IMG/VR virus record: IMGVR_UViG_3300036713_000599
DNA from: a virus
Taxonomy: Duplodnaviria; Caudoviricetes
Length of the DNA stretch: 64,000 nt
Strand: one strand, 5' to 3'
In this document: in pieces, positions 350 to 62,318 of the stretch
How positions within the stretch are numbered: position 1 is the first letter of the stretch
Layout: each line of letters begins with the position of its first letter
Notes under the pieces: model-generated
Database searches by the model: none
Told to the model about the DNA's origin: nothing
Seen by the model: the letters and a program-made list of their open reading frames with translations, nothing else
Position numbers and translations under genes: made by a program

Positions 350-2551
350 ATGGCTGCTGAGATTACGTTCGACCAACCGACTGGGGCGGGTGCTGGTGTT
401 GCCGGAAAGGCTCGGAATGACCTTTGGTTGAGCCAAGCGGTAGACATGGTCTCTAGCGGAACCGGTTCGACGTACCTGTGGGAGTTGTTGGACGCCCCTC
501 CAGGTAGTTCTGCAGTGATCGCAAACCCTACCGCGAGCACAGCAAATATTACACCTGATGAAGTAGGTACCTACCGTATTCAGCTTACGGTGGATGGCGG
601 GGGATTGGACAATGTTATTGTCAAGGTCATCCGTGCTCGCTTCAGTGACTCGGGTGAGCTTCTTTTTCGGGGCTGGGCTTTGCCGGCGATCGACGAGGAA
701 ATCGACGAGGCCGACTACGGAACCAATACGCGGCACTGGGCTGAGGTGTGGGAGTCCATTATACCTGATGTCCGAGGCAACCTGACTCGTTCGCTCGTGT
801 TTCGACCTGGTGGGCCAGCTGGCGGTAACGTCTACGCGAGCTGGTCTGACCTTATGGTGGCTTTCGGTGAGACTTCCGGTCTAGTGACTGTCGAAATAGA
901 TGGTGACTATGACCAGCCGGTCGTCCCTCCTGGGTCGTGGGACTTTGAGTCCAGAGCTATTTTGGTTGGAAGGGGTTTTGCAGGCTTTCGTGTACCTTTA
1001 GAAATAGGCGATGGCTCCACTAGTGACACGGAGCTGAGTGGGGTTAGCGGTTTCCGAAATCTTGAAGTTTATGCCGTAAATGATGCGACGAACACTGCTT
1101 CGAATTACATAGCGAGCGATAAAATTTGGTTTGAAGACTGTGACGTTTATTCCCAAAACATTGGTGCTCCTCGGAGAATGTTCGAAATGGAGCAGAGCGA
1201 GATCATTCTTCGGGGTAGAACACGTTTTCTAGAAGGGGGCACTGAGTCTATATACGTTGTGCCCTTTAATCCAGGTAATAGTGTTTATGTCGAGAATTTC
1301 AGTTCTATCGACGAGTCTGTGTTGGACGTCCCTGCTAATGCCACGGTTGACATTTATTTAGCCAACCAAACTACGACCTACGACACCTCTCAAACAGTAA
1401 GCGGAACCCTGAACGCATTTTCTTCGACTGCGTACACCTTTTTTGTGTACCGGCCAGGAGGGATTTCTTCTGGTAATGTCTACTCTGATTGGGCCACATT
1501 GATGGGAAAAGTGGCGTCTACAGAGGGACCGAAGACAATTGAGCTGGACCCTTCGGTGGACCCGAATACGCGATGTGATATTCCTAGTGGCACGTGGGAC
1601 TTAGGGTACAACACCACCCTCCGTGGGGATGGTTCCGTTGTCGTGCTTATGGAGGATGGCGCCAATTTCAGAAATGCTTCTGTACTAGAAGGTGGTTTGG
1701 AAATTTGGAGTGCCAGCACGAGTGTTGTGTTCACGTGGTCTGGTACGAAAACTCTTAGCCTCCGCGACTCCTGCAAGCTGATCGGGGCCCAGTATCCTGG
1801 CCAATCAGCTCCAACTTTCCCTCTCTTGGAAGGTGGGAGCCACGTCATTGATATGAGAGACGACTCGGCTTTGAGGGCCTCTTTGGGCGATCAGCCGGTT
1901 TTGGACAATGATGACTTGCCTAACGACCTCATCCTCATGTATGATCGTGCTAGTATCGAGGATGGGTCAGGAGGCAGCAATCAGTCGTATGCTCTAAATG
2001 CTGGTGAACAAGATGACATAGGGATCAACTTTTATTCTCCTGCGTCGTATTTCAATCACGACAGAACTAACCTAAACATACAGTCTTGGGCGGTTAGGCA
2101 AAATGTCATATCTCTCGTGAAGGGCTCCTTCAGCAATGCATCCTCTACGCCTTCAGCTGTGGGGGGTGGTCACCTGGATCTCGCCAGGATGGGGACGGCC
2201 CATTCCAATTTGACAGCCAGGCTTCTGGTCTTGTTGGAGACCACGAGCGGTACTCCGGGGTTCGAGGCGTATTTTGACTTGTACGATGTATTCGGTATTT
2301 TGAATTCAGGCGTACCTGCTGTAGTAGCGGGCTCTCAGGTGAACACGGGGACGGGGGTGCCACCTGTGGGTGGTCCTACAACTAACCCTCTTGTTCCGAG
2401 CCTGTATGTAGTTGATCTTAGTTCGTTGCTTGCGTCGGTTCCGGCAGCAACAGCTTCTTATGTGGTCTTAGAAGCTAGACTCTGGATTGGCACGACTGGT
2501 GGGGGCAACGTAGCAACCTGCAAATCGGCCGAGTTGGCCTTCGAGTGGTGA
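350..2551 (+). CDS. Virion structural protein, 733 aa, with N-terminal PKD/Ig-like domain and an internal duplicated module
   Basis: GAGG RBS. N-terminal TYLWELLDAPPGSSAVI...TPDEVGTYRIQLTV resembles PKD/Ig folds. Two copies of (V/Y)(F/Y)RPGG..GNVY..W..LM...G..T.E.D.....P.G.WD. Confidence 0.6.
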   Translation: MAAEITFDQPTGAGAGVAGKARNDLWLSQAVDMVSSGTGSTYLWELLDAPPGSSAVIANPTASTANITPDEVGTYRIQLTVDGGGLDNVIVKVIRARFSDSGELLFRGWALPAIDEEIDEADYGTNTRHWAEVWESIIPDVRGNLTRSLVFRPGGPAGGNVYASWSDLMVAFGETSGLVTVEIDGDYDQPVVPPGSWDFESRAILVGRGFAGFRVPLEIGDGSTSDTELSGVSGFRNLEVYAVNDATNTASNYIASDKIWFEDCDVYSQNIGAPRRMFEMEQSEIILRGRTRFLEGGTESIYVVPFNPGNSVYVENFSSIDESVLDVPANATVDIYLANQTTTYDTSQTVSGTLNAFSSTAYTFFVYRPGGISSGNVYSDWATLMGKVASTEGPKTIELDPSVDPNTRCDIPSGTWDLGYNTTLRGDGSVVVLMEDGANFRNASVLEGGLEIWSASTSVVFTWSGTKTLSLRDSCKLIGAQYPGQSAPTFPLLEGGSHVIDMRDDSALRASLGDQPVLDNDDLPNDLILMYDRASIEDGSGGSNQSYALNAGEQDDIGINFYSPASYFNHDRTNLNIQSWAVRQNVISLVKGSFSNASSTPSAVGGGHLDLARMGTAHSNLTARLLVLLETTSGTPGFEAYFDLYDVFGILNSGVPAVVAGSQVNTGTGVPPVGGPTTNPLVPSLYVVDLSSLLASVPAATASYVVLEARLWIGTTGGGNVATCKSAELAFEW

Positions 2552-2556
2552 AATAG

Positions 2557-3528
2557 ATGGCTCTCCCGACACTAGAAAAAACTTGGCAGTTCTCCGTCAA
2601 TCAATCGGTCGGTGGGATTGCTGTAGATAATGACAACGCGGATCTCCTTTGGAAGATACAAAATGCTTTGAAGAACTTCGTGTCAGGTCAATGGTCGGTC
2701 GCGTCCAGCTCTGATGGGTCAAACTTTGGGTTGTCAGATTTCTGGCAGACGGATTACACAGACATCACTTGGGCAGCCGGTTCAGTGGCCCATTCCTGGA
2801 TTGTGTTGACAAACAGTGCCACGAACGCCCAGCTATGCATCGACTGCAACGTGGCTGAAGCCGGTAGCGAAACCGGACAAGTGTACTTTTCCCCAGGAGG
2901 AGGGTATGCCACCACAGGGCTCGCCACAACAGATCGGCCCACTCCTCCAGCAGACGAGGTCCTTATCACAGCTGGACCAGGGTACGGCGGGTCAGATGGA
3001 GCGTGGAACGGGAAAGTTCACGTGATGATGAGCAGCGACGGAGAGGCCACCAGAATTGCAGTCTGCGAATCGAATGGGTGTGTGGCTCTCTGGCTCTTAG
3101 ACGCCGCTCGAAATCCAATAACGGGTTGGACCAACGCAAATATTGGGTGTGCCGCTGGTAGGAGTAGCTCTGGGGTATCAGACTATTCAACATACGCAAA
3201 CCTTAACGCTGCGACTAAGCTGAAGAGTTACATCACGACCTCTTTTGACCTGTATCTCACCAGTGAAGGATATGGGTCAGGTATGGTTGGAAACAGCCCT
3301 TCTGGGACCGTAGCAGACAGCCAGACGGGATCATGGCCCATGTTGCCCATAGGGCTAGCGAGTGAGACTGCGGCTCATGTGGGCCGAAAGGGTGGTCTCT
3401 ACGACATCTGGTGGGGTAGTGTCACGCGAAATACAGGTGACTCCTACCCCAATGACACGTCGTACCAATTCGTGCAGTTTGGGGACATCATTCTTCCCTG
3501 GAGCGGCGTGCTTCCACAGGTGTCATAA
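2557..3528 (+). CDS. Putative tail/fibre protein; ~330-aa paralogue family member 1
   Basis: Motifs EKTW, W.V.SSS.G...D.W, SWIVL and C-terminal P.....G.LYDIWWG are shared with four other modules in 9.4-13.5 kb. Confidence 0.55.
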   Translation: MALPTLEKTWQFSVNQSVGGIAVDNDNADLLWKIQNALKNFVSGQWSVASSSDGSNFGLSDFWQTDYTDITWAAGSVAHSWIVLTNSATNAQLCIDCNVAEAGSETGQVYFSPGGGYATTGLATTDRPTPPADEVLITAGPGYGGSDGAWNGKVHVMMSSDGEATRIAVCESNGCVALWLLDAARNPITGWTNANIGCAAGRSSSGVSDYSTYANLNAATKLKSYITTSFDLYLTSEGYGSGMVGNSPSGTVADSQTGSWPMLPIGLASETAAHVGRKGGLYDIWWGSVTRNTGDSYPNDTSYQFVQFGDIILPWSGVLPQVS

Positions 3529-47547: not shown

Positions 47548-48305
47548 GGATTGCCGCTGTACAATTCCGGCCTGAATTTAGTGGACCGGGCGATAGTTTC
47601 TCACCCAACAGCAAGAATCGAGAGAGGAACATTCAAACACTCGTCGAGCTTGGTACTGAGGCGGCCAGAGGCGGGGCTGAGCTAATTGTCTTCCCAGAGC
47701 TTGCCACTACCGGTTACAGCTTCATGTCGGTAGCAGAGGCCGAGTCTCAGGCGGAGATTGTCCAAGCGAGGCGCGGGAGCGTTGGAGCGATGCTTGCCTT
47801 GGCTAAGCGGTTAGGTGTTGGATTTGTTTGGGGACTCGTTGAAAAGTCACCCATCGTCGGCAAGCTCCATAATTCTCAGGTTATGGCATTACCTGATGGG
47901 ACCTTGGTTTCCTATGCCAAGGTGAACAGGTGGGGCCAGGACCTGATATGGGCCGACGAAGGTGTAGACAGTCCACCTATAGTAGCCTTCAGGGGATTTA
48001 ACGTCGGTCTGCTCATATGTCGTGATATCAAGGACAGTGGGTCTGGTCTGGATGATTTTTACGAACCAGGAGATGCAGACATTGTGGCTTTTTCGACCAA
48101 CTGGGGGAACGGAGCTTTTCCGTCAAATCGATGGGTTAATTTTGCGAAGTCAAATAACACCTGGCTTGTAGTCGCCAACAGGTACGGTAAAGAAGCAAAC
48201 AACGACTTCGGTGAGGGCGGGAGCTGTGTTGTTAGCCCGAACGGCAAGGTCCACTGTGAAGGTCTTCGATGGTCTTCGCCTTGCATCGTCTACGCTGACA
48301 TCTAG
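47544..48305 (+). CDS. Carbon-nitrogen hydrolase (nitrilase superfamily)
   Basis: MRIAAVQF, IVFPEL (Glu), YAK (Lys), LLICRD (Cys): complete E-K-C triad. Confidence 0.88.
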   Translation: MRIAAVQFRPEFSGPGDSFSPNSKNRERNIQTLVELGTEAARGGAELIVFPELATTGYSFMSVAEAESQAEIVQARRGSVGAMLALAKRLGVGFVWGLVEKSPIVGKLHNSQVMALPDGTLVSYAKVNRWGQDLIWADEGVDSPPIVAFRGFNVGLLICRDIKDSGSGLDDFYEPGDADIVAFSTNWGNGAFPSNRWVNFAKSNNTWLVVANRYGKEANNDFGEGGSCVVSPNGKVHCEGLRWSSPCIVYADI

Positions 48306-48775
48306 ACGCGCGCTAATAGGCTCTTAGTTAGCCGCAGTAGAGATAGCCCAGCCAGTTCAGGGTCGTCGACGCCTATGGACTCACTTACTACTTTTGTCCA
48401 CTCCGGCCGCCCTTTCAGATCGTACGGAACCCAGCCCATATTGAGGATCACTTTCCCATTCTTCAGCCCAATTCGTAGTGAGATTCCATCTACAGGGTGA
48501 CGGGTGGAGAAGAAGTAGTACACGTCGGTACCTCGCTGGCTGACGTTCAGGTAGTACTTGTCCATGAATTTTTGCCGTAGGAGTTTGAGCAGACGAGGCA
48601 TCAGTATGTTCACAGACTCCTTAGCCAACTGGATAGCTTCTTGGTCCTCTTTCGATGCAACAGCAATGGAGGAACCAAGCTTCGCGAACACCCACTCTGG
48701 AATAGGCGGGTTCCAGCCTTCCATCGACGTTTGAATGGCCCAGCGAGCTACGACTCTACGAATTATACGTTCCAT
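48302..48775 (-). CDS. Hypothetical protein with N-terminal RRVVARW motif
   Basis: Lone minus-strand gene with GGAG RBS and TCTATTGAT upstream. Confidence 0.6.
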   Translation of the reverse strand: MERIIRRVVARWAIQTSMEGWNPPIPEWVFAKLGSSIAVASKEDQEAIQLAKESVNILMPRLLKLLRQKFMDKYYLNVSQRGTDVYYFFSTRHPVDGISLRIGLKNGKVILNMGWVPYDLKGRPEWTKVVSESIGVDDPELAGLSLLRLTKSLLARV

Positions 48776-56061: not shown

Positions 56062-57065
56062 TGGCACTCTCTCTGAGTAACATCAAAAATCTCAAACACA
56101 TCGTGACCCACGCCTATTGTCCTGACGGTACTGCCAGCGCCTTGCTGCTCAAACAATGCCTGCCTTGGGCAGACGTGACTTTCGTACAATACAATACAGA
56201 GGAACATAAGACCCTTCCCGTGCGAGAGGGGACCATCTTTGCAGACTTTTCACCACATGATGATCAAGTCGAAGACTTCGTGAGAGTTGGTGCAGTCGTA
56301 CTTGACCACCACATAACGAAAAAAGAAGTGGTCGAGAAATTTGGTAAAAATGGAGTCTTTGGTGACGAAAAAACAGAACCTGGAATAAGTGGAGCTTCCC
56401 TCGTCTTCCGTGAGGTATACAAACCGTTGATGGAGAGCCACAGAGTTAGCTCACAAGATATACGCAAAGTCCAAGATTTCGCTTATCTTGTTGGCATCAG
56501 GGACACATGGCAAAACAAACATAAAAGGTGGAACGAAGCCTGTGCTGTATCAGAAGCACTGAACTTCTGGCCCTGGAACACCTACAAGTCCCTCAAGGAC
56601 TTAGAGAGCAAGTTGGAAATTGGTCCAATTCTATTGGAACGCAAGCTCAATGCTGCCAAAAAGGCGGGAGACGACGCTTGGAGATTCACTACTTCAAGGA
56701 AGACGAAGGTCGCAGTCATTGAGGGCGTCAGAATGTCCAGTGACACGGCTGAATACCTGGATGACGAAGTTGACCTCGTCATAGGATTCAACGTACGCGC
56801 AATAGACGGCAAATCGACCCTGATTTTTTCAAATCGTAGCCATACCTTCTTCGACTGTGCAGCTTTTGCCACCAAACATGGTGGCGGTGGTCATACACGT
56901 GCTGCCGGGTTTGCTTGGCAGCTCGGCCCCAACGATCCTCAGCCCCACACACTAATTCGAAGAATCGTCGAACATTACGAACTCACCGGCGAAAGATACA
57001 ACAGTAAGGTCCCGCTATGGGACCGGCTCCGCTACCTCAAGTGGCTTCACCTTCAGAGTACCTAA
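56061..57065 (+). CDS. DHH/DHHA1 phosphoesterase
   Basis: TH..CPDG, ADF, LDHH, GGGGH..AAGF. Confidence 0.88.
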   Translation: MALSLSNIKNLKHIVTHAYCPDGTASALLLKQCLPWADVTFVQYNTEEHKTLPVREGTIFADFSPHDDQVEDFVRVGAVVLDHHITKKEVVEKFGKNGVFGDEKTEPGISGASLVFREVYKPLMESHRVSSQDIRKVQDFAYLVGIRDTWQNKHKRWNEACAVSEALNFWPWNTYKSLKDLESKLEIGPILLERKLNAAKKAGDDAWRFTTSRKTKVAVIEGVRMSSDTAEYLDDEVDLVIGFNVRAIDGKSTLIFSNRSHTFFDCAAFATKHGGGGHTRAAGFAWQLGPNDPQPHTLIRRIVEHYELTGERYNSKVPLWDRLRYLKWLHLQST

Positions 57066-57615
57066 GAGACCTCGTTTCCCATAAGACGTCTAGACTAGAC
57101 ATCTCCGCTCGAATGAACTGGAGTGTCACTTTAGCTCGCTCAATCCCGTTCTGAATAAGAGTCTCCCGTACATCCAGTCCTGGTTGGCCCACAGAAGCAA
57201 CTGAGACTCGACTGTAGGCATCATTGGGTAAGTAGTACCAGGCGAGCTGCCGGGCCGTTCTAGGCCCCTTTCTGAGCCCGTATCGGTCAACTACGTACTG
57301 TTTAAATTCCTCAGGTATCTTTATCCAGTCGTCCGACAAGAGAACAGGTACAGCTTCCCCTCCTACAGTGTAGTAGGGAGCGGGTTCAGGTAATCTGCCT
57401 GCAGAAAAATTACGTCGCCTTCGCCCGACCTGGAGGGCCATCCACCGAATGGTGGAAAGCAGGTACTCCCATTCAGATCCGCCTTCCAATTCACTCTCGA
57501 AGCCGATCTGACAGCGACGCGTAAGTAGACAGACAAGGTTATCGTCGGAGGAGTCAGTGAAGTCGGACCAGGGACGAAAGGCTTCGTCCAAGAAGGTCTC
57601 CATCTTGGACTTCAT
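57037..57615 (-). CDS. Protein with sigma-70 region-4-like HTH
   Basis: EEFKQYVVDRYGLRKGPRTARQLA resembles v..RyGL..g...T..eia. Start reassigned to ATG 57615 (GAGG RBS). Confidence 0.4.
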   Translation of the reverse strand: MKSKMETFLDEAFRPWSDFTDSSDDNLVCLLTRRCQIGFESELEGGSEWEYLLSTIRWMALQVGRRRRNFSAGRLPEPAPYYTVGGEAVPVLLSDDWIKIPEEFKQYVVDRYGLRKGPRTARQLAWYYLPNDAYSRVSVASVGQPGLDVRETLIQNGIERAKVTLQFIRAEMSSLDVLWETRSLRYSEGEAT

Positions 57616-57727
57616 ACGCTGACCTCTGACGGATATTAAAGCTGTTTGGGTCATATTTTGGTAAATATTAACATTTCTTGACAGGAGATGCACGACGATA
57701 ATTGTACTATATGACGGGGATAGTGAA

Positions 57728-60700
57728 ATGGTACAAGCTGCAGCAATGATCATTCAGAGAAGCGGGTCTGTCCTCATGTTGAAACGAGGCTCAACAGCCT
57801 CATGGATGCCCGGAAAATGGAATTTTCCCACAGGCCGTGTTGAGGATGACGAGTCCGTTGTTGAAGCCGCAATTCGGGAAACAGCGGAAGAGTCTGGAAT
57901 AAGTGCGAATTTCCCTCAAAAGGTCATCACTTTGAATTTTCCTGAGGCAACCGTCACGTACTTCCACACCTTTGATAGCAGTGACACCGAACCAGTTCTC
58001 AACTTCGAATCTTCTGAGTATAGGTGGGTTCCTGTTCCCGAGGTGGTGAAACTGGACACCATTCCTGGTGTGGACCAGGCTCTCAAGGCGTTGAGTGGGG
58101 TGACGAGGGTTGTGGCAAAGCAACAAGCCCTCGCCGTATCGGGGCTCTATGGTAGGCCTGTTGGCCGATTCGCGTCGTCTTTCAACCTGACTGAATTCAA
58201 TGCGTTGGCCAGGGATATGCCAACCCTTGATGAGTGGTTTCATGGAGCTTCCACATATCTTGAGGACAGAGGGGCCAAGCTCCTAGGCTTTGGTATGGGT
58301 CGAAGTGTTTACGCTCTTCCTGGGGACAGAGTTATCAAACTAGCTAAAAGTCAGTTTGGAAGGGAACAGAACCAACAAGAAGAGTTCTCCTACGACTCAT
58401 TTCAAAGCCTGAAAATTTTGTTACCTGTCTTGGACGCAGCTGACGACGGAAGGTGGTTGATCTCACCCCTGGCAAAGTTAGCTAGTAGTAGGGACCTGGT
58501 TGCGTGGTCCGGAGTACCACGTGAAGTACTTCACGGTTTATTGGAGGGGGATGAATCGCTACCCACATCAGATCTAACTCAGAAAGGCAAGAATCTGATC
58601 CGCTTTGCTCAAAAAGAAGACATGGTTGCAGCAGACCTGGTCAAGCTGGACTCGTGGGGCAAGTGGAGGGGTGAGCTTTGGTTGTTGGACTACGGGTTGA
58701 GCAAAGACGTAGCCCGACGCATGAAGAGAACCCTATACAGAGCCGCAGCCACTCAACGAGTGGTGGCTCTGTACAAGAACAAGAAACAGGTCAAGAAACA
58801 AGACGGCAAAGGAACGACGACCGTCTACGAGTACAGTAAGAGGCAAGTCCAGCATCGAAATAGGGAAAAGGCCAAAAGAATCGAAAAACTCCGCCAAAGT
58901 ATTTCGAATCTCCGTGCCCAGGTTGGAAAAGATCTCAAGTCATCGGACCCTGACAAGTTCCTCACAGCACTTGCTGTGGGCCTCATAGACGAGACGTATG
59001 AGAGGGTCGGTAACGATGTGTCTGCGAAGGGCGGGCACTTCGGCGTCACTGGGTGGCGAAAGAATCATGTGAGTTTCAACCGAAATAAGGCGATTGTGAG
59101 CTACGTCGGCAAGTCGGGAGTAAAGCAGAAAAAGATGGTAAGCAACGCTCCCCTGGTGCGTGCCTTACGGGACGCTTGTGAGGCCGTTGAGGGAGAAGAT
59201 TGCCTGTTCTGCCATGACACAGGTAAAGTCGATGCCAACAAGATCAACGCCTACCTCCGGAAGTTCGACGTCACAGCAAAAGACATCCGTGGCTTGCACG
59301 CCAACGAAGAGATGAAGCAGCGGCTGAGAGCTGTCCGTAAAGGCAAGTTGCCTGAGGATCCGAAAGAGCGGAAAGCAGTTCTCAAGGATGAGTTTAAAAA
59401 GGCCCTGGAAGAAACAGCCAAGATTGTTGGGCACGAGGCGTCAACACTCAAGGGCCAGTACCTGGTTCCTGGCCTCGAAGACGAGTACGTCTCTAGTGGA
59501 GAAATCGTGCAAAAGTTGGACAAGTCGGCAGCCGTCGTAACACGTTATCTTGAGGCTGCCAAGGTCGTCCGGATTGATGGGCCTTGGGTTGACAAGATGC
59601 GCAAAGACTTCTTGATGCTCATGAAGAACATCCCGAGAGCCAAGGACTACGATGCGGCGATCCAACTCAAGGAAGGGTTTGACCGGTGGCGACGGCAATC
59701 AGCGGAGTTTTTCTTCAAGAGATTCCTGGACAATTCTCTCAAATACGACGATCGGATCGTGGAAAAAGTTCGGAAAGAGATAGAACGTAACCTCCGCAAA
59801 CCTGCCAAAGACTTCTTCGACGAAGCCTACCTTCCCATTGAGCGAGCCAGCGACTATACTCCAGCCTCAGTCCAATTCGAACGGTACCTTGAAGACGTAA
59901 AGAAGTGGGAGAAAAAGACTCGACGTAAGGCTCAGGTGTTCTGGAAGGCGTTGAAGGAAGCTCTCTCGATATATGAGAAGGGTTGGTACAAAGGGCCGGA
60001 CGCACCGTCCACCCTACAAGCCGAGGTTCCCGTCTACGAAAAAACGGTCATCGAGGGCTTCCAAATTGAAGTTCGCGGCTACGAGCAGAGTGACGATATT
60101 GACAGAGAAGCGATGCCAATGATCCGAGAGGCTCTCAAGAGGTATAGGGAGAGGGCGGCTAAGCGTATACCTTGGGTGCTGAAAAACCAACTCCCGTTAG
60201 TACTGGAATTTGAAGCTACTCTGGACGTAGCAGGACGGTACAACCACGACGGGACAATCACGATTTTTGCATCGGCAGCAATCAACAGCACTCCCGACGC
60301 ATTGACCAAGACGATGGCTCATGAGATGGGGCACCACTTATGGAGGTTGTTGAGCGGGGACGCTAGAGAATACTGGTCCACGGCCATTAGCGGAGACTAT
60401 GGCAAGATTGACGTTCGAGAGCTGCTATCCGGATGGCCTGAAGGCATGTGGGCTTATGAATATGCTGACTACTTGGCGGACAAGGACCCGATTCTATCCC
60501 TTCAGCTAGAAACTGTATGGCCTGGGTATGGTGGACGGCAGGAGATGGTCGAGAAGCAGGACTTCGAGGATCGCTTGGAGGAAGGCTACACAACACTATC
60601 TGTTCCAAAGAACCCAATCTCTGGCTATGCAAGCAAGAACCCCGAAGAGGCATTCTGTGAGGCCGTTGGGATGACAGTAGCTTACGGGAATCGAGCGGTG

Positions 60701-60799
60701 CTCCCACAGGTCCGCAAATGGCTCAACACTGTAATCCCAGGCCAGGTCAAGATAGCAAACATCGTTAGTCGTTATCTTTCGACCCAAGAAGGACTCTGA
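57728..60799 (+). CDS. Multidomain protein: Nudix hydrolase + kinase-like + topoisomerase IB catalytic domain + zincin metallopeptidase
   Basis: Perfect Nudix box from G36. Kinase G187-x-G, K204, D303, D321YG. TopIB R426/K462/R521/H569/Y578. HEMGH (865-869) plus EEAFCE. Confidence 0.85.
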   Translation: MVQAAAMIIQRSGSVLMLKRGSTASWMPGKWNFPTGRVEDDESVVEAAIRETAEESGISANFPQKVITLNFPEATVTYFHTFDSSDTEPVLNFESSEYRWVPVPEVVKLDTIPGVDQALKALSGVTRVVAKQQALAVSGLYGRPVGRFASSFNLTEFNALARDMPTLDEWFHGASTYLEDRGAKLLGFGMGRSVYALPGDRVIKLAKSQFGREQNQQEEFSYDSFQSLKILLPVLDAADDGRWLISPLAKLASSRDLVAWSGVPREVLHGLLEGDESLPTSDLTQKGKNLIRFAQKEDMVAADLVKLDSWGKWRGELWLLDYGLSKDVARRMKRTLYRAAATQRVVALYKNKKQVKKQDGKGTTTVYEYSKRQVQHRNREKAKRIEKLRQSISNLRAQVGKDLKSSDPDKFLTALAVGLIDETYERVGNDVSAKGGHFGVTGWRKNHVSFNRNKAIVSYVGKSGVKQKKMVSNAPLVRALRDACEAVEGEDCLFCHDTGKVDANKINAYLRKFDVTAKDIRGLHANEEMKQRLRAVRKGKLPEDPKERKAVLKDEFKKALEETAKIVGHEASTLKGQYLVPGLEDEYVSSGEIVQKLDKSAAVVTRYLEAAKVVRIDGPWVDKMRKDFLMLMKNIPRAKDYDAAIQLKEGFDRWRRQSAEFFFKRFLDNSLKYDDRIVEKVRKEIERNLRKPAKDFFDEAYLPIERASDYTPASVQFERYLEDVKKWEKKTRRKAQVFWKALKEALSIYEKGWYKGPDAPSTLQAEVPVYEKTVIEGFQIEVRGYEQSDDIDREAMPMIREALKRYRERAAKRIPWVLKNQLPLVLEFEATLDVAGRYNHDGTITIFASAAINSTPDALTKTMAHEMGHHLWRLLSGDAREYWSTAISGDYGKIDVRELLSGWPEGMWAYEYADYLADKDPILSLQLETVWPGYGGRQEMVEKQDFEDRLEEGYTTLSVPKNPISGYASKNPEEAFCEAVGMTVAYGNRAVLPQVRKWLNTVIPGQVKIANIVSRYLSTQEGL

Positions 60800-60855
60800 G
60801 CGGCAGAAGCCTAGGCGGGGGCCTCCGACCTCCCTTGAGCCCTTGTCGGTGCCTT

Positions 60856-61026
60856 CTAGTCGCCTCTTTGGTCTCTCTGCCAATCTTCCGGAAGAAAACC
60901 TCCACTTTCGATCCACTGGTCAAGAGCGTCGAACAACATAACCAAGCGATGAGCCGTCTCTTGGTCAGGGGTATCGTTTGTAGCGACGATTCTCCGTATT
61001 TCTTTGAGGCATTCGTTTGGATCCAT
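60856..61026 (-). CDS. Small phage-type protein, 56 aa (not in ORF track)
   Basis: MDPNECLKEIRRIV...LFDALDQWIESGGFLPEDW with GGAGG RBS; resembles a recalled MDPN...LD.W...GGFLP..W phage family. Confidence 0.65.
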   Translation of the reverse strand: MDPNECLKEIRRIVATNDTPDQETAHRLVMLFDALDQWIESGGFLPEDWQRDQRGD

Positions 61027-61035
61027 AGCTCCTCC

Positions 61036-61079
61036 TACACCGAAAGAGGGCGGCCCTTTAGGGACGGATAGTTTACCAG
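61036..61079 (+). mobile_element. 44-bp collapsed copy of the IS605 remnant ends
   Basis: 61036..61052 is identical to the reverse complement of 41037..41053. 61054..61079 matches the reverse complement of 40728..40753 at 24/26. Confidence 0.6.
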
Positions 61080-61104
61080 AATTTATCTATTCAGCCGCCC
61101 TCAC

Positions 61105-61431
61105 GTGACTGACGAACTCGACATCCGATGGCAACGAAACTTCGAGGCAACCCAGCGGAGGCTTGAGGCCAAAGAAAGGGCCATTGCCTACCTTGGAGGT
61201 AAATGTCGTATCTGCGGCTACGACAAGTGCCCCGCTGCCATGGCTTTCCACCACCTGGACCCGAGGGAGAAGGACTTTGAGGTCAGCTCTCGCCTCTCTT
61301 GGGGAGCGGTTAAGCCTGAGTTGGATAAATGTGTGTTATTGTGTTCCAACTGCCATCAAGAGGTGCATGCTGGATGGCATCCAGAGTATTTGAGCGACGA
61401 GGAGCTTGGTGTGCGGGGCGACGACACCTGA
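61105..61431 (+). CDS. HNH endonuclease
   Basis: CRICG...FHHLDP...KCVLLCSNCHQEVH. Confidence 0.85.
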   Translation: MTDELDIRWQRNFEATQRRLEAKERAIAYLGGKCRICGYDKCPAAMAFHHLDPREKDFEVSSRLSWGAVKPELDKCVLLCSNCHQEVHAGWHPEYLSDEELGVRGDDT

Positions 61432-61445
61432 CGCTTGTTGACCGG

Positions 61446-62318
61446 CTAGTCTTCTTGTTTGGACCATTCAATTTCTGGCACATCTCTCTCTCGCCGTCCA
61501 ATAATGACAAGTTCCTTGACCGGCCCTCTCTTGTCGCCCCTAGAGTTGATGCACCGCCTTGCCGCAACCTCATGAGTCTCAAAGCCGTTGTACAAGTCGC
61601 GGATATGGGCCGTATTGGAGTTTGAGAGCACGACCTTCACCCCTCGGTCGACCAGGGTCCGGAAAGTTTCGGCTAACCTCTTTTGGTCCTCGTAAGTGAA
61701 CCCGTCTTTGGTGTAACTGGTGAAGTTCGAAGTGGCGTTAAGGGGAGCATAAGGCGGATCAAAGTAGACGAGATCGTCTTCAACGGCAGGAGCTACCACC
61801 TTGGCGAAGTCGTCACAGTAGAGGGCAGCGTACTGATTAAGAGCCTCAGAGCATTTGAGAAGGTTGGGAGCATCGAGCGTCTTTGGTGTCTTGGCCCACC
61901 TGCCGTAAGAGACGTTGAACTTTCCCTTTTTGTTGACGCGGTAGAGTCCGTTGAAACACAGCTTGTTGAGATAGATCGTTCGAGCGGCACGTCGGGCTGG
62001 GCTTATGTCGTTAGGGTCCAACTCCCTGAGTTGCATGAACGTTTCCCTGTTAACCTCCCAACACTTCAGCTGATCAATGAGGTCGTTGGGAAAACTACGG
62101 ACCGCGCGGTAGCAGTCGATCAGTTCTTGGTTGGCATCGTTGAGGATCGCTCTACCAAAGTGAAAGTTCTTGCGAGAAGCCATGCCAAAAAAGGCCGCCC
62201 CTCCCCCAACAAAGGGCTCATAATAAGTGCCACATTGTTTGGGGAAGATGTCTAAGAGGAGGGGCAGAATCCCACGTTTGCCTCCAGCCCATTTGAGGAA
62301 GGGGCGTACCACTGTCAT
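61446..62318 (-). CDS. dam: Dam-family N6-adenine DNA methyltransferase
   Basis: FLKWAGGK, YYEPFVGGGA, ND.N..LI..Y, YFDPPY, SNS. Target specificity is not determinable from the sequence. Confidence 0.9.
   Translation of the reverse strand: MTVVRPFLKWAGGKRGILPLLLDIFPKQCGTYYEPFVGGGAAFFGMASRKNFHFGRAILNDANQELIDCYRAVRSFPNDLIDQLKCWEVNRETFMQLRELDPNDISPARRAARTIYLNKLCFNGLYRVNKKGKFNVSYGRWAKTPKTLDAPNLLKCSEALNQYAALYCDDFAKVVAPAVEDDLVYFDPPYAPLNATSNFTSYTKDGFTYEDQKRLAETFRTLVDRGVKVVLSNSNTAHIRDLYNGFETHEVAARRCINSRGDKRGPVKELVIIGRRERDVPEIEWSKQED

What the first reader, a model, noticed from the sequence alone, without database searches (positions are those of the whole stretch)
57728..60799. Nudix-kinase-topoisomerase IB-metallopeptidase fusion: candidate multi-enzyme takeover system
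Seen: four unrelated catalytic domains with largely intact active sites. The Nudix box is perfect. The kinase has a Gly loop, VIK, D303 and DYG, but Ser where Asn is usual. The TopIB pentad is R426-K462-R521-H569-Y578, spaced like poxvirus R130-K167-R223-H265-Y274. The zincin has HEMGH plus a distal EEAFCE. Known: phage polyvalent proteins combine zincin and nucleotide-processing domains for delivery early in infection, and TopIB is normally stand-alone. I do not recall this combination. Inference: a virion-packaged, possibly self-processing polyprotein that relaxes incoming DNA, removes alarmones or ADP-ribose/NAD signals and phosphorylates host targets.
Basis: partly seen in the sequence, partly recalled or inferred. 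Interest (0 to 1): 0.85.

Follow-up and report, generated by a model that had tools for sequence, protein, structure and literature searches.

The report
Four-enzyme cassette protein of huge phage
An uncultured giant phage from sediment really does encode one 1023-residue protein joining a nucleotide hydrolase, a stripped-down kinase-like module, a DNA topoisomerase IB and a zinc protease; it belongs to a large, little-described family of shuffled, tag-bounded enzyme cassettes, and whether it travels in the virus particle is still unproven.

Summary
ORF 57728-60799 (+) is real and was re-assembled identically by independent assemblers. It contains four modules:
- a Nudix domain (Pfam 8e-16, intact box);
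- a topoisomerase IB (Pfam 6e-22) whose pentad R426/K462/R521/H569/Y578 aligns exactly with the vaccinia residues and is essentially invariant in 197 relatives;
- a C-terminal module that folds (pLDDT 90) as a basic four-helix bundle plus an anthrax-lethal-factor-like zincin, with invariant HExxH, Tyr967 and Glu974;
- a kinase-like module, which is the weak point. It belongs to phrog_4301 (mini-kinase-like jumbo-phage proteins) and keeps the Gly-loop, Lys, Asp and DYG, but reaches no curated kinase threshold, lacks the catalytic-loop Asn, and could not be folded.

TopIB plus zincin is the conserved core of an orthologous locus in related huge phages. Nudix is present only in the closest relative, and the kinase only here. 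Every module is bounded by an RVAARY-like peptide that also heads unrelated proteins. Some of those lie in the terminase-portal block of relatives, where two relatives also keep a stand-alone TopIB.

This is a new variant of Iyer-Aravind "polyvalent proteins". Virion packaging and self-cleavage are plausible but unshown, and an alarmone or ADP-ribose role is not supported. Earlier notes of this scan describe TopIB-led cargo proteins on other DNA; I did not check them.

The parts
57728..60799 (+). Whole ORF, 1023 aa (P0001), about 116 kDa, pI about 9.0
   Evidence: The identical protein is found in independent assemblies.
57728..58099 (+). Nudix hydrolase module (residues 1-124), MutT/NudG-like
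   Evidence: Pfam NUDIX 8.3e-16. Nudix box 36-58. Nearest PDB and NCBIfam matches are MutT-type. Conserved in 8 family members.
58106..58123 (+). Boundary tag 1, RVVAKQ (residues 127-132); degenerate copy of the RVAARY motif
   Evidence: the Nudix modules of relatives end ...AL(S)xxxRV(A/V)AR(F/Y).
58223..58747 (+). Truncated protein-kinase-like module (residues about 166-340). It has Gly-loop 187-193, K204, E218, D303 and D321-Y-G; the catalytic-loop Asn is replaced (D308/S309).
   Evidence: phrog_4301 5.9e-8, the same PHROG as stand-alone 170-195-aa jumbo-phage proteins. Profile A2 hits only kinases/APH in the PDB, best E 0.0077. The nearest named Atlas clusters carrying a Pfam family are nearly all kinase-type (Phage_T7_kinase, Kinase-PolyVal, YrbL-PhoP_reg, Pkinase, APH). 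The AF2 model failed, pLDDT 42.
58757..58774 (+). Boundary tag 2, RVVALY (residues 344-349). This is the N-terminal signature of TopIB modules (consensus RVAA[KR][YF][KQ]xKK).
58757..59527 (+). Type IB topoisomerase module (residues 344-600) with pentad R426, K462, R521, H569, Y578. Only the last hairpin of the N-terminal domain is retained.
   Evidence: Pfam 5.7e-22. Alignments to 2f4q and 2h7f. Pentad conserved in 197 homologues.
59531..59548 (+). Boundary tag 3, AVVTRY (residues 602-607), preceded by K-S-A-A
59561..60001 (+). Basic four-helix bundle (residues 612-758, pI 9.7) with the conserved RKDFLxLMKNxPR motif. It is the first half of the conserved C-module.
   Evidence: AF2 model. Only generic helical-bundle matches. 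Conservation. pI.
60002..60751 (+). Gluzincin metallopeptidase (residues 759-1008) with H865-E866-x-x-H869, Y967 and E974
   Evidence: AF2 pLDDT 89.9. VIA matches: anthrax LF Z 10.5, PPEP-2/3 Z 8.7, Wss1 Z 8.1. Foldseek hits are nearly all zincins. Invariant residues. No Pfam family reaches threshold.
60758..60775 (+). Boundary tag 4, NIVSRY (residues 1011-1016), at the C-terminus
   Evidence: C-modules of relatives end GQVK(L/T)A(S/A)-RVVARYL...
48302..48775 (-). Separate 157-aa protein (P0227) with the tag at its N-terminus (MERIIRRVVARW). No family match.

Best explanation
This is a genuine 'polyvalent' multi-enzyme protein of an uncultured huge phage (contig at least 283 kb, sediment). It is assembled from four portable cassettes:
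- a MutT-like Nudix hydrolase;
- a C-lobe-less protein-kinase-like module;
- a catalytically complete type IB topoisomerase;
- a module made of a basic helical bundle plus a lethal-factor-like zinc metallopeptidase.

TopIB plus zincin is the conserved core of an orthologous locus in related huge phages. Nudix, and then the kinase module, were added in this lineage.

Each cassette is bounded by a short RVAARY-like peptide. The same peptide also begins or ends unrelated proteins of these phages.

Inferred mechanism:
- The modules act as independent enzymes that are addressed together by the tag. The most likely destination is the capsid, for delivery with the DNA, as poxviruses do with their TopIB.
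- The modules are probably separated at the tagged linkers by the zincin or by the head protease.
- TopIB relaxes the phage DNA during packaging, ejection or early transcription.
- Nudix hydrolyses a (d)NTP-like substrate.
- The kinase-like module either phosphorylates an unknown target or is a binding pseudokinase.

Shown: the domain identities, the active-site conservation, the cassette shuffling and the tag enrichment. Inferred: packaging, cleavage, the substrates and the timing.
For: - Domain identities and conserved active sites.
- Large family: 770 cluster representatives at E<1e-30. TopIB and the C-module occur alone, in either order, or with many other enzymes.
- Orthologous locus with the same neighbours in four other huge-phage contigs. 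TopIB and the C-module are fused in three and split into adjacent genes in one. Nudix is present only in the closest relative, and the kinase only here.
- A kinase cassette bounded by tags also occurs in P0139.
- Tag enrichment: 288 matches against 22 +/- 4 in shuffles, with 57 at N-termini. At DNA level there are 25 matches in five IMG/VR huge-phage records against 1 in the reversed control.
- The tag is found on unrelated proteins: P0227 in the window, neighbours in L007, L008 and L010, and in G001 a 129-aa protein just upstream of the large terminase plus a seam inside the 965-aa protein after the portal.
- Stand-alone tagged TopIB (55-56% identical to this module) lies directly after the large terminase and about 2.5 kb before the portal in G003 and G005, with a 93-aa remnant at that place in G001.
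- Iyer et al. 2017 (PMC5512222) describe MPTase as the hub domain of polyvalent proteins and propose it cuts them into functional units. They also describe kinases lacking the C-terminal subdomain.
- A portal PHROG profile contains a Nudix segment (phrog_15528).
Against: - The gene itself lies in a replication/nucleotide-metabolism block (ClpX, DUF1848, DHH phosphoesterase, Dam, RNase HII), about 32 kb from the nearest virion gene in the window.
- There is no proteomic or expression evidence.
- The four tags of this protein are degenerate: none matches the strict pattern.
- The tag may partly be an intrinsic N-terminal element of the TopIB fold.
- The kinase module reaches no curated threshold, lacks the catalytic-loop Asn, and its fold could not be predicted.
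- The packaging-block association is one conserved synteny in related genomes, not several independent events.
Confidence: 0.55

Rival explanations
1. An intracellular replication/repair multi-enzyme that is never packaged. TopIB acts as the swivel for replication and transcription of a huge genome. The adjacent zincin, with its basic helical bundle, works like Wss1/SPRTN and removes trapped TopIB-DNA adducts or other DNA-protein crosslinks. Nudix sanitises or reshapes the dNTP pool. The tag is a docking peptide for a replisome or unfoldase hub such as the syntenic phage ClpX.
For: - The gene lies in a conserved block with ClpX, DHH phosphoesterase, Dam methylase, RNase HII and RNase T.
- TopIB and the zincin are always fused or adjacent at this locus.
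- Wss1 is among the structural matches (Z 8.1), and SprT-like is a sub-threshold Pfam hit.
- The helical bundle is basic, pI 9.7.
- The Nudix module is nearest to MutT/NudG.
- The tagged P0227 lies next to ClpX.
Against: - The best structural match is lethal factor/PPEP rather than SprT/Wss1.
- A stand-alone TopIB sits in the terminase-portal block in two relatives, and tags occur on packaging-block proteins.
- The free shuffling of TopIB with unrelated effector-type enzymes and an LPD1 domain looks like polyvalent effectors rather than a fixed repair complex.
Confidence: 0.3
2. A nucleic-acid end-repair or counter-defence toolkit ('Swiss-army-knife' type). TopIB acts on ribonucleotide-containing or damaged strands, producing or resealing 2',3'-cyclic-phosphate/5'-OH ends. 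The accessory modules, here Nudix and a kinase-like domain, process the ends or the nucleotide signals made by host defences.
For: - Family partners of this TopIB are RNA ligase, CCA-type nucleotidyltransferase, 2H and LigT phosphoesterases, HAD_SAK_1, PAP2, HD and the cyclic-phosphate-processing cREC domain.
- In the 530-kb contig, PolyA_pol, HD and DUF5661 genes are neighbours of the TopIB protein.
- From my own knowledge, not checked here: vaccinia TopIB can cleave at ribonucleotides and leave a 2',3'-cyclic phosphate.
Against: - P0001 itself carries none of the RNA-repair modules.
- A protein-kinase-like fold is not a known polynucleotide kinase.
- The pentad and overall similarity are those of ordinary DNA-relaxing TopIB.
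- I found no paper or assay linking phage TopIB to RNA repair.
Confidence: 0.1
3. An artefact or relic: an assembly chimera, or a fusion of decayed, inactive domains.
For: - The tags of this protein are degenerate.
- The kinase catalytic loop is altered.
Against: - The identical ORF is found in independent assemblies, with contigs spanning all junctions and no differences.
- Orthologous fused genes occur in related contigs.
- All catalytic residues of the Nudix, TopIB and zincin modules are intact and conserved across the family.
Confidence: 0.03

Closest known systems
Polyvalent proteins of phages and conjugative elements (Iyer, Burroughs, Anand, de Souza, Aravind 2017, J Bacteriol; PMC5512222)
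   Same: - A large phage protein that strings unrelated enzymatic domains together.
- A zincin MPTase as the recurring hub.
- Kinase domains lacking the C-terminal subdomain.
- NUDIX appears in the domain neighbourhood.
- An LPD1 domain is present in a relative (P0034).
- Orthologous genes differ in architecture.

   Different: - TopIB is not among the domains described there: 'topoisomerase' occurs only in the reference list.
- This zincin matches no Pfam family and carries its own conserved helical bundle.
- The kinase-like module does not hit Pfam Kinase-PolyVal.
- The gene is not beside head genes.
- The cassettes carry an RVAARY-type boundary tag, which I did not find described in the parts of that paper I read or in my other paper searches.
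Poxvirus and bacterial type IB topoisomerases (vaccinia TopIB, PDB 2h7f; Deinococcus radiodurans TopIB, PDB 2f4q)
   Same: - Complete catalytic pentad in register.
- E 6.5e-8 and 4.6e-9 over about 220-240 residues.
- From my own knowledge: vaccinia TopIB is carried in the virion, which is the functional analogy proposed here.
   Different: - Only the last hairpin of the N-terminal domain aligns, from vaccinia residue 63.
- The module is preceded by the RVAARYKxKK tag.
- Most sampled members of this phage clade are part of multi-domain proteins, median 1123 aa.
Anthrax lethal factor catalytic domain and Pro-Pro endopeptidases (MEROPS M34-type gluzincins)
   Same: - Best structural matches: LF Z 10.5 with rmsd 3.6 over 160 residues; PPEP-2/3 Z 8.7.
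- HExxH plus a downstream Glu, with a conserved Tyr seven residues before it. That this spacing matches LF Tyr728/Glu735 is my recollection, not tested here.
- Iyer et al. likewise unified polyvalent MPTases with LF.
   Different: - There is no detectable sequence similarity: the profile found no zincin in the PDB and no Pfam family reached threshold.
- It has an invariant Cys977 and a fused basic four-helix bundle.
Phage T7 gp0.7 kinase, Pfam Kinase-PolyVal, and the phrog_4301 mini-kinase-like proteins of jumbo phages
   Same: - Member of phrog_4301 (5.9e-8), together with Yersinia phage fHe-Yen9-04 g442, E. coli phage ph0011 'protein kinase domain-containing protein' and Xanthomonas phage XbC2_8.
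- Shares the Gly-loop, VIK Lys, EQN..E, D.K..N and LLDYG motifs.
- Atlas feature search places it next to T7-kinase, Kinase-PolyVal, YrbL, Pkinase and APH clusters.
   Different: - No curated kinase model is reached.
- hhalign to T7 gp0.7 aligns only the Gly-loop and Lys, probability 2.4%.
- This copy has an inserted residue and lacks the catalytic-loop Asn.
Capsid-targeting sequence of T4 internal proteins and Alt (from my own knowledge)
   Same: A short peptide shared by unrelated proteins, often at the N-terminus, in a phage that also has tagged proteins in its packaging/head block.
   Different: - The sequence is unrelated: basic and hydrophobic (RVAARY) rather than ending in L/I-x-E.
- It also occurs at C-termini and internal seams.
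- No cleavage or packaging has been shown.

Membership tests
Nudix hydrolase superfamily (PF00293) | Nudix box GX5EX7REUXEEXGU with the catalytic Glu residues | tested here: met
   Residues 36-58 read GRVEDDESVVEAAIRETAEESGI; the U after RE is Thr. R50, E51, E54 and E55 are invariant in 8 family modules.
Nudix hydrolase superfamily (PF00293) | Profile score above the curated threshold | tested here: met
   58.7 bits against 21.1.
MutT / NudG (d)NTP pyrophosphohydrolase equivalogs | NCBIfam equivalog score above cut-off | tested here: not met
   These are the best hits, but far below cut-off: 47.6 against 148 bits and 44.1 against 156 bits. Substrate is therefore unassigned.
Type IB topoisomerase (PF01028) | Profile score above the curated threshold | tested here: met
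   78.6 bits against 23.7.
Type IB topoisomerase (PF01028) | Catalytic pentad Arg-Lys-Arg-His/Asn-Tyr in register | tested here: met
   R426/K462/R521/H569/Y578 align to vaccinia R130/K167/R223/H265/Y274. Conserved in 197 homologues.
Type IB topoisomerase (PF01028) | Full N-terminal DNA-binding domain | tested here: inconclusive
   Alignments begin at vaccinia residue 63 and Deinococcus residue 62. About 15 residues, including the tag, precede them. No structure was made of this module.
Protein-kinase-like superfamily | Gly-rich loop, beta3 Lys, alphaC Glu, catalytic Asp and DFG Asp | tested here: met
   GFGMGRS 187-193, K204, E218, D303, D321-Y-G. This is motif-level evidence only.
Protein-kinase-like superfamily | Catalytic-loop Asn (D-x-K-x-x-N) | tested here: not met
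   Four relatives keep D.K..N.G. P0001 reads DLVKLDSWG, with an inserted residue and D308/S309 in place of Asn.
Protein-kinase-like superfamily | Significant profile or fold match to a kinase | tested here: inconclusive
   - Pfam gives only YrbL-PhoP_reg at E 0.077.
- Relatives hit Pkinase at E 0.002-0.004, below cut-off.
- The best 60 PDB matches of the five-sequence profile A2 are all kinases or aminoglycoside phosphotransferases, best E 0.0077.
- AF2 pLDDT 42, unusable.
Pfam Kinase-PolyVal (PF18762) | Profile match | tested here: not met
   No hit at E <= 10. There is only an Atlas feature lead, score 0.91.
phrog_4301 (unknown function; jumbo-phage mini-kinase-like proteins) | Profile match | tested here: met
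   E 5.9e-8, residues 175-336. P0139 scores 1.5e-10, and three jumbo-phage proteins score 1e-18 to 2e-41.
Gluzincin / polyvalent-protein MPTase | HExxH helix plus a downstream Glu as third ligand | tested here: met
   H865, E866, H869 and E974 are invariant in 33 homologues.
Gluzincin / polyvalent-protein MPTase | Zincin fold | tested here: met
   AF2 pLDDT 89.9. LF Z 10.5, PPEP Z 8.7, AsaP1, deuterolysin and Wss1 at Z 8.1-8.5. Foldseek rows are almost all zincins, but with E 7e-3 or weaker.
Any curated peptidase family (Pfam) | Profile score above threshold | tested here: not met
   Peptidase_Mx, Peptidase_Mx1, SprT-like and DUF5700 all score E 0.03-0.15, below their cut-offs.
Phage-type polyvalent protein (Iyer et al. 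2017) | Several unrelated effector domains in one polypeptide of a phage, with an MPTase | tested here: met
Phage-type polyvalent protein (Iyer et al. 2017) | Encoded among virion or head-morphogenesis genes | tested here: not met
   The neighbours are ClpX, DUF1848, CxxCxxCC, DHH, Dam and RNase HII. However, a stand-alone TopIB orthologue lies between terminase and portal in G003 and G005.
Virion-packaged, protease-processed cargo (T4 CTS-like systems) | Presence in virions and cleavage at the tag | not testable with these tools
   No isolate and no proteome are available. The head module of this genome lies outside the window, and no whole genome is held.

The most novel reading that the evidence does not exclude
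The RVAARY-type peptide is a portable address-and-seam signal of one clade of huge phages. It marks enzymes that are loaded through the packaging/head machinery and cut apart at the tag: TopIB, an LF-like zincin, Nudix, a mini-kinase, a GNAT and others. The injected proteome of these phages would then be readable from sequence, and type IB topoisomerase would be a capsid-delivered enzyme in bacteriophages as it is in poxviruses.
Probability: 0.35. Interest if true: 0.8.

Novelty: new variant of a known kind. Interest (0 to 1): 0.62.

Why it matters
Type IB topoisomerases are textbook enzymes of eukaryotes, poxviruses and some bacteria. In phages they have received only passing mention (one sentence in Iyer et al. 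2021). Here one is the hub of a very large metagenomic family (hundreds of 50%-identity clusters) of shuffled multi-enzyme proteins that is almost absent from cultured phages: 1 of 50,697 GenBank phage records.

If the boundary tag proves to be a loading or cleavage signal, it would:
- give a sequence-level way to list what huge phages carry into the cell;
- provide a bacterial-virus parallel to the poxvirus virion enzyme set;
- supply compact, naturally modular enzymes (a 260-aa TopIB, a 175-aa kinase-like core, a new LF-like protease clade) for biochemical study.

If instead the zincin guards against trapped TopIB adducts, it would be a phage counterpart of Wss1/SPRTN repair.

Tried and rejected
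- Kinase module homologue searches found nothing: the search for homologous proteins on residues 140-345 and 160-345 gave no hit even at E <= 10; the search for related loci in viral contigs found none; tblastn against GenBank phages gave only E 0.07-7.
- AF2 of residues 138-345 with a 2-sequence alignment gave pLDDT 42, so no fold search was made.
- hhalign of the five-sequence kinase-module profile A2 against T7 gp0.7 aligned only 29 columns, probability 2.4%.
- Jumbo-phage relatives from GenBank could not be used for folding or Atlas searches under the tool rules.
- The C-module profile against PDB sequences found no zincin.
- Complex prediction of the C-module plus Zn with the kinase|TopIB boundary peptide gave a 'no answer' verdict, score 0.00. 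This is not evidence either way.
- The promoter/terminator scan around the gene found nothing above shuffles.
- No RNA holder was listed among the sequencing runs.
- The whole genome is not held, so this phage's own head module could not be examined. Records behind L007-L010 are not held. The strict tag pattern gave 0 hits in LR745208.1, whose tags are variants.
- The last PHROG and Pfam searches gave no family for the tagged small proteins or the post-portal 965-aa protein.
- A [KR]-x-A-[SAG] site upstream of the tag is enriched (62 of 231 against 8.6 expected). Much of that comes from the conserved end of the C-module, so I treat it only as a lead for a protease site.
- Assembly chimera is rejected.

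Full report
1. The object

The window carries one uninterrupted ORF at 57728-60799 on the + strand, encoding 1023 aa (P0001). The window is phage DNA. It holds a 2225-aa virion structural protein, a tail protein, helicases, a DnaB-like helicase, a 1391-aa DNA polymerase, a thymidylate-synthase-like gene, a ClpX-like ATPase, a DHH phosphoesterase and a Dam-type methylase. The same protein is recorded on a 282,752-bp contig. Public runs holding it are sediment metagenomes.

An independently called 45-kb ENA contig has the identical protein and the same neighbours. Logan contigs of two runs span 56500-61500 in one piece without a single difference. These may be the source samples, but they were assembled by a different assembler. 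Orthologous fused genes exist in related contigs (see section 4). The fusion is therefore not an assembly artefact.

2. The four modules

Nudix (residues 1-124):
- Pfam NUDIX scores 8.3e-16.
- The box G36...I58 is complete, with Thr at the 'U' position. Its catalytic residues are invariant in eight family members.
- The nearest solved and curated relatives are MutT-like proteins, NudG (pyrimidine (d)NTP diphosphatase) and 8-oxo-dGTPases.
- All NCBIfam scores are far below equivalog cut-offs, so the substrate is open. Nothing points specifically to alarmones, ADP-ribose or NAD caps.

Kinase-like module (residues about 166-340):
- The segment matches phrog_4301 at 5.9e-8. The same PHROG takes in stand-alone 169-194-aa proteins of jumbo phages: Yersinia fHe-Yen9-04 g442, E. 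coli ph0011 'protein kinase domain-containing protein' and Xanthomonas XbC2_8. It also takes in a module at the C-terminus of P0139.
- In a five-sequence alignment (A2), the Gly-loop Arg, the VIK Lys, an EQN..E element and LLDYG are invariant, and the catalytic Asp is present in every sequence, offset by one column in P0001. The four relatives read D-x-K-x-x-N-x-G, while P0001 reads DLVKLDSWG. It has one extra residue, and Asp308/Ser309 sit where the Asn should be.
- Two of the relatives hit Pfam Pkinase at E 0.002-0.004, below threshold.
- The best 60 PDB matches of the five-sequence profile A2 are all protein kinases or aminoglycoside phosphotransferases. The best is MKK4 at E 0.0077, aligned over the catalytic loop and DFG.
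- An Atlas feature search places the segment beside clusters carrying Phage_T7_kinase, Kinase-PolyVal, YrbL-PhoP_reg, Pkinase and APH.
- No curated model is reached. hhalign to T7 gp0.7 aligns only the Gly-loop and Lys. AF2 failed for want of homologues, pLDDT 42.
- My reading: this is a protein-kinase-like module without the C-lobe, of the kind Iyer et al. 2017 described for polyvalent proteins. It is probably, not certainly, a kinase, and it may be catalytically impaired.

TopIB (residues 344-600):
- Pfam Topoisom_I scores 5.7e-22.
- phmmer finds Deinococcus TopIB at 4.6e-9 and vaccinia TopIB at 6.5e-8.
- Counting through the printed alignment puts R426, K462, R521, H569 and Y578 on vaccinia R130, K167, R223, H265 and Y274.
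- In 197 homologous modules, four pentad positions are invariant and the fifth is His in 196 and Asn in 1.
- Only the last hairpin of the N-terminal domain is retained.

C-module (residues 603-1015):
- This is one evolutionary unit of about 410 aa that also exists as stand-alone proteins of about 400-450 aa.
- With a 33-sequence alignment, AF2 gives pLDDT 89.9. The model shows a four-helix bundle (612-758; pI 9.7) followed by an alpha/beta zincin (about 762-1007).
- An all-against-representatives structural search puts the anthrax lethal factor catalytic domain first for the second half (Z 10.5, rmsd 3.6, 160 residues). PPEP-2/3, AsaP1, deuterolysin and Wss1 follow at Z 8.1-8.7. The first half matches only generic helical bundles.
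- Foldseek rows are weak but almost all zincins.
- H865, E866, H869, Y967, E974 and C977 are invariant.
- No Pfam family and no PDB sequence is reached. This is therefore a new sequence clade of gluzincin, consistent with the 'MPTase' hub of polyvalent proteins, which Iyer et al. also unified with lethal factor.

3. The family

- An exhaustive HMMER search finds 5255 cluster representatives at E <= 0.001, and 770 at E <= 1e-30.
- Among 226 fetched proteins, 197 carry the TopIB module, 82 the C-module and 53 both, in either order. The median length of TopIB carriers is 1123 aa and the maximum is 3196 aa (the sample is partly length-biased).
- Partner domains include RNA ligase, PolyA_pol-type nucleotidyltransferase, 2H/LigT phosphoesterases, PAP2, HAD_SAK_1, HD, cREC, GGACT, GNAT, ParB, carbonic anhydrase, DUF5661 and LPD1.
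- The backbone Nudix-TopIB-C-module recurs in P0002-P0005. Among the fetched proteins, the kinase cassette occurs only in P0001 and P0139.
- Among 50,697 GenBank phage records, only the 485-kb uncultured phage LR745208.1 has this TopIB clade and the C-module. They are separate genes there, and the TopIB is fused to a HAD-like domain.
- The polyvalent-protein paper does not list TopIB. The jumbo-phage survey mentions a phage-specific topoisomerase I only in passing. My other literature searches found nothing on TopIB-led phage fusions.

4. An orthologous locus with swapped modules

Four other huge-phage contigs (147-421 kb) share the gene order ClpX - DUF1848 - ... - CxxCxxCC - ... - DHH - [TopIB gene] - small ORF - Dam - RNase HII. 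The differences at the TopIB position are:
- TopIB and the C-module are always present.
- They are fused in L008 and L010, and split into two genes 10 bp apart in L009.
- The Nudix module is present only in the closest relative L007 (72% identical).
- The kinase cassette is present only in this phage.

The protein therefore grew by accretion onto a conserved TopIB-zincin core. That pairing must reflect a functional link.

5. The boundary tag

- All four seams of P0001 carry a related peptide: RVVAKQ, RVVALY, AVVTRY and NIVSRY.
- In relatives the consensus is clear. TopIB modules begin RVAA[KR][YF][KQ]xKK. C-modules begin ...RVAxRYxxA and end GQVK(L/T)A(S/A)-RVVARYL.
- A strict pattern matches 288 times in the 226 proteins, against 22 +/- 4 in shuffles. 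Of these, 57 lie within 20 residues of an N-terminus.
- A degenerate DNA pattern gives 25 matches in five IMG/VR huge-phage records, against 1 in the reversed control.
- The tag also heads or ends unrelated proteins. These are P0227 in the window (MERIIRRVVARW); a 140-aa and a 373-aa protein flanking the orthologue in L007; a GNAT-like protein and a 244-aa protein in L008; and a 254-aa protein in L010.
- The first-stage reader noted this motif independently. I tested its enrichment here.

6. A link to the packaging module

- In G001, the 372-kb genome of the closest relative, the tags outside the TopIB locus include the N-terminus of a 129-aa protein just upstream of the large terminase. They also include a seam at residue 692 of the 965-aa protein directly after the portal. 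The part downstream of that seam is a separate 366-aa gene in G005.
- In G003 and G005 the 129-aa protein is conserved, with its tag. A stand-alone TopIB of about 350 aa begins ...LRVAARYK(S/N)KK and is 55-56% identical to the P0001 module. It sits directly after the large terminase and about 2.5 kb before the portal. G001 has only a 93-aa remnant at that place.
- In this clade, then, TopIB alternates between the packaging block and the ClpX-Dam locus.
- This is guilt by association in related genomes, effectively one conserved synteny. It is nonetheless the best available support for a capsid or packaging-linked role.
- Earlier notes of this scan report portal-fused and head-locus TopIB proteins in other genomes. 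I did not check them.

7. Verdict

The interpretation as a polyvalent 'takeover' protein is reasonable in kind. However, packaging, self-cleavage and the proposed substrates are inferences.

The main rival is an intracellular replication/repair role in which the zincin polices TopIB adducts. It fits the gene's own neighbourhood and cannot be excluded.

I class this as a new variant of a known kind. The framework is the known polyvalent protein. The new elements are TopIB as hub, a new lethal-factor-like zincin module, a phrog_4301 mini-kinase cassette, and a portable RVAARY boundary tag.

Noticed in passing
window 48302-48775 (-): A 157-aa protein (P0227) with no family match begins MERIIRRVVARW, the same tag as the module boundaries. 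It lies just upstream of the ClpX-like gene, and a weak homologue sits at the same place in L009.
   Followed up: partly
L048:6221-7276 (+) (G003) and L049:9361-10407 (-) (G005); L046:8822-9103 (-) (G001): A stand-alone, tagged TopIB gene lies directly after the large terminase and before the portal in two related huge phages. The closest relative keeps only a 93-aa C-terminal remnant there.
   Followed up: partly
L046:2557-5454 (-) (G001), residues 1-130; P0224, P0040, P0056, P0214; L004:3404-4930: A second shared peptide block (...ESPKLKPPRRDRRR...) opens the 965-aa protein encoded right after the portal. It also forms the C-terminal tail of several TopIB polyvalent proteins, including the HAD-TopIB protein of LR745208.1. 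P0001 lacks it.
   Followed up: no
L007:13273-14394 (+): The tagged 373-aa protein following the orthologue P0002 is 52% identical to the C-terminal part of the TopIB protein P0063. It ends ...EDFAETFAHY, which looks like the third-ligand helix of another zincin.
   Followed up: no
L008:12757-13086 (-): A small GNAT-like protein (weak Acetyltransf_7/10 hits) begins MNHTAARVAQRF. It is a tagged acetyltransferase next to the TopIB gene.
   Followed up: no
window 57037-57615 (-): A 192-aa ORF on the minus strand was called as a gene in the ENA contig. It lies between the DHH gene and P0001, overlaps the DHH 3' end, and has no tblastn match in the four syntenic loci. It is either lineage-specific or not a gene.
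   Followed up: partly
P0001 residues 5-111 against phrog_15528: A PHROG annotated 'portal protein' (794 positions) contains a Nudix segment at profile positions 524-628, so portal-Nudix fusions exist in phages.
   Followed up: no
Contig of P0035 (530,589 bp), locus positions 844-3477: The neighbour of a HAD_SAK_1-TopIB protein is a PolyA_pol-type nucleotidyltransferase interrupted by an intein with a LAGLIDADG domain. HD and DUF5661 genes lie beside it.
   Followed up: no
L009:15445-17766 (-): A 773-aa protein with a Cas12f1-like/TnpB domain sits between the response-regulator and RNase HII genes of the syntenic block. Other first-stage notes report TnpB/IS605 elements in this window.
   Followed up: no
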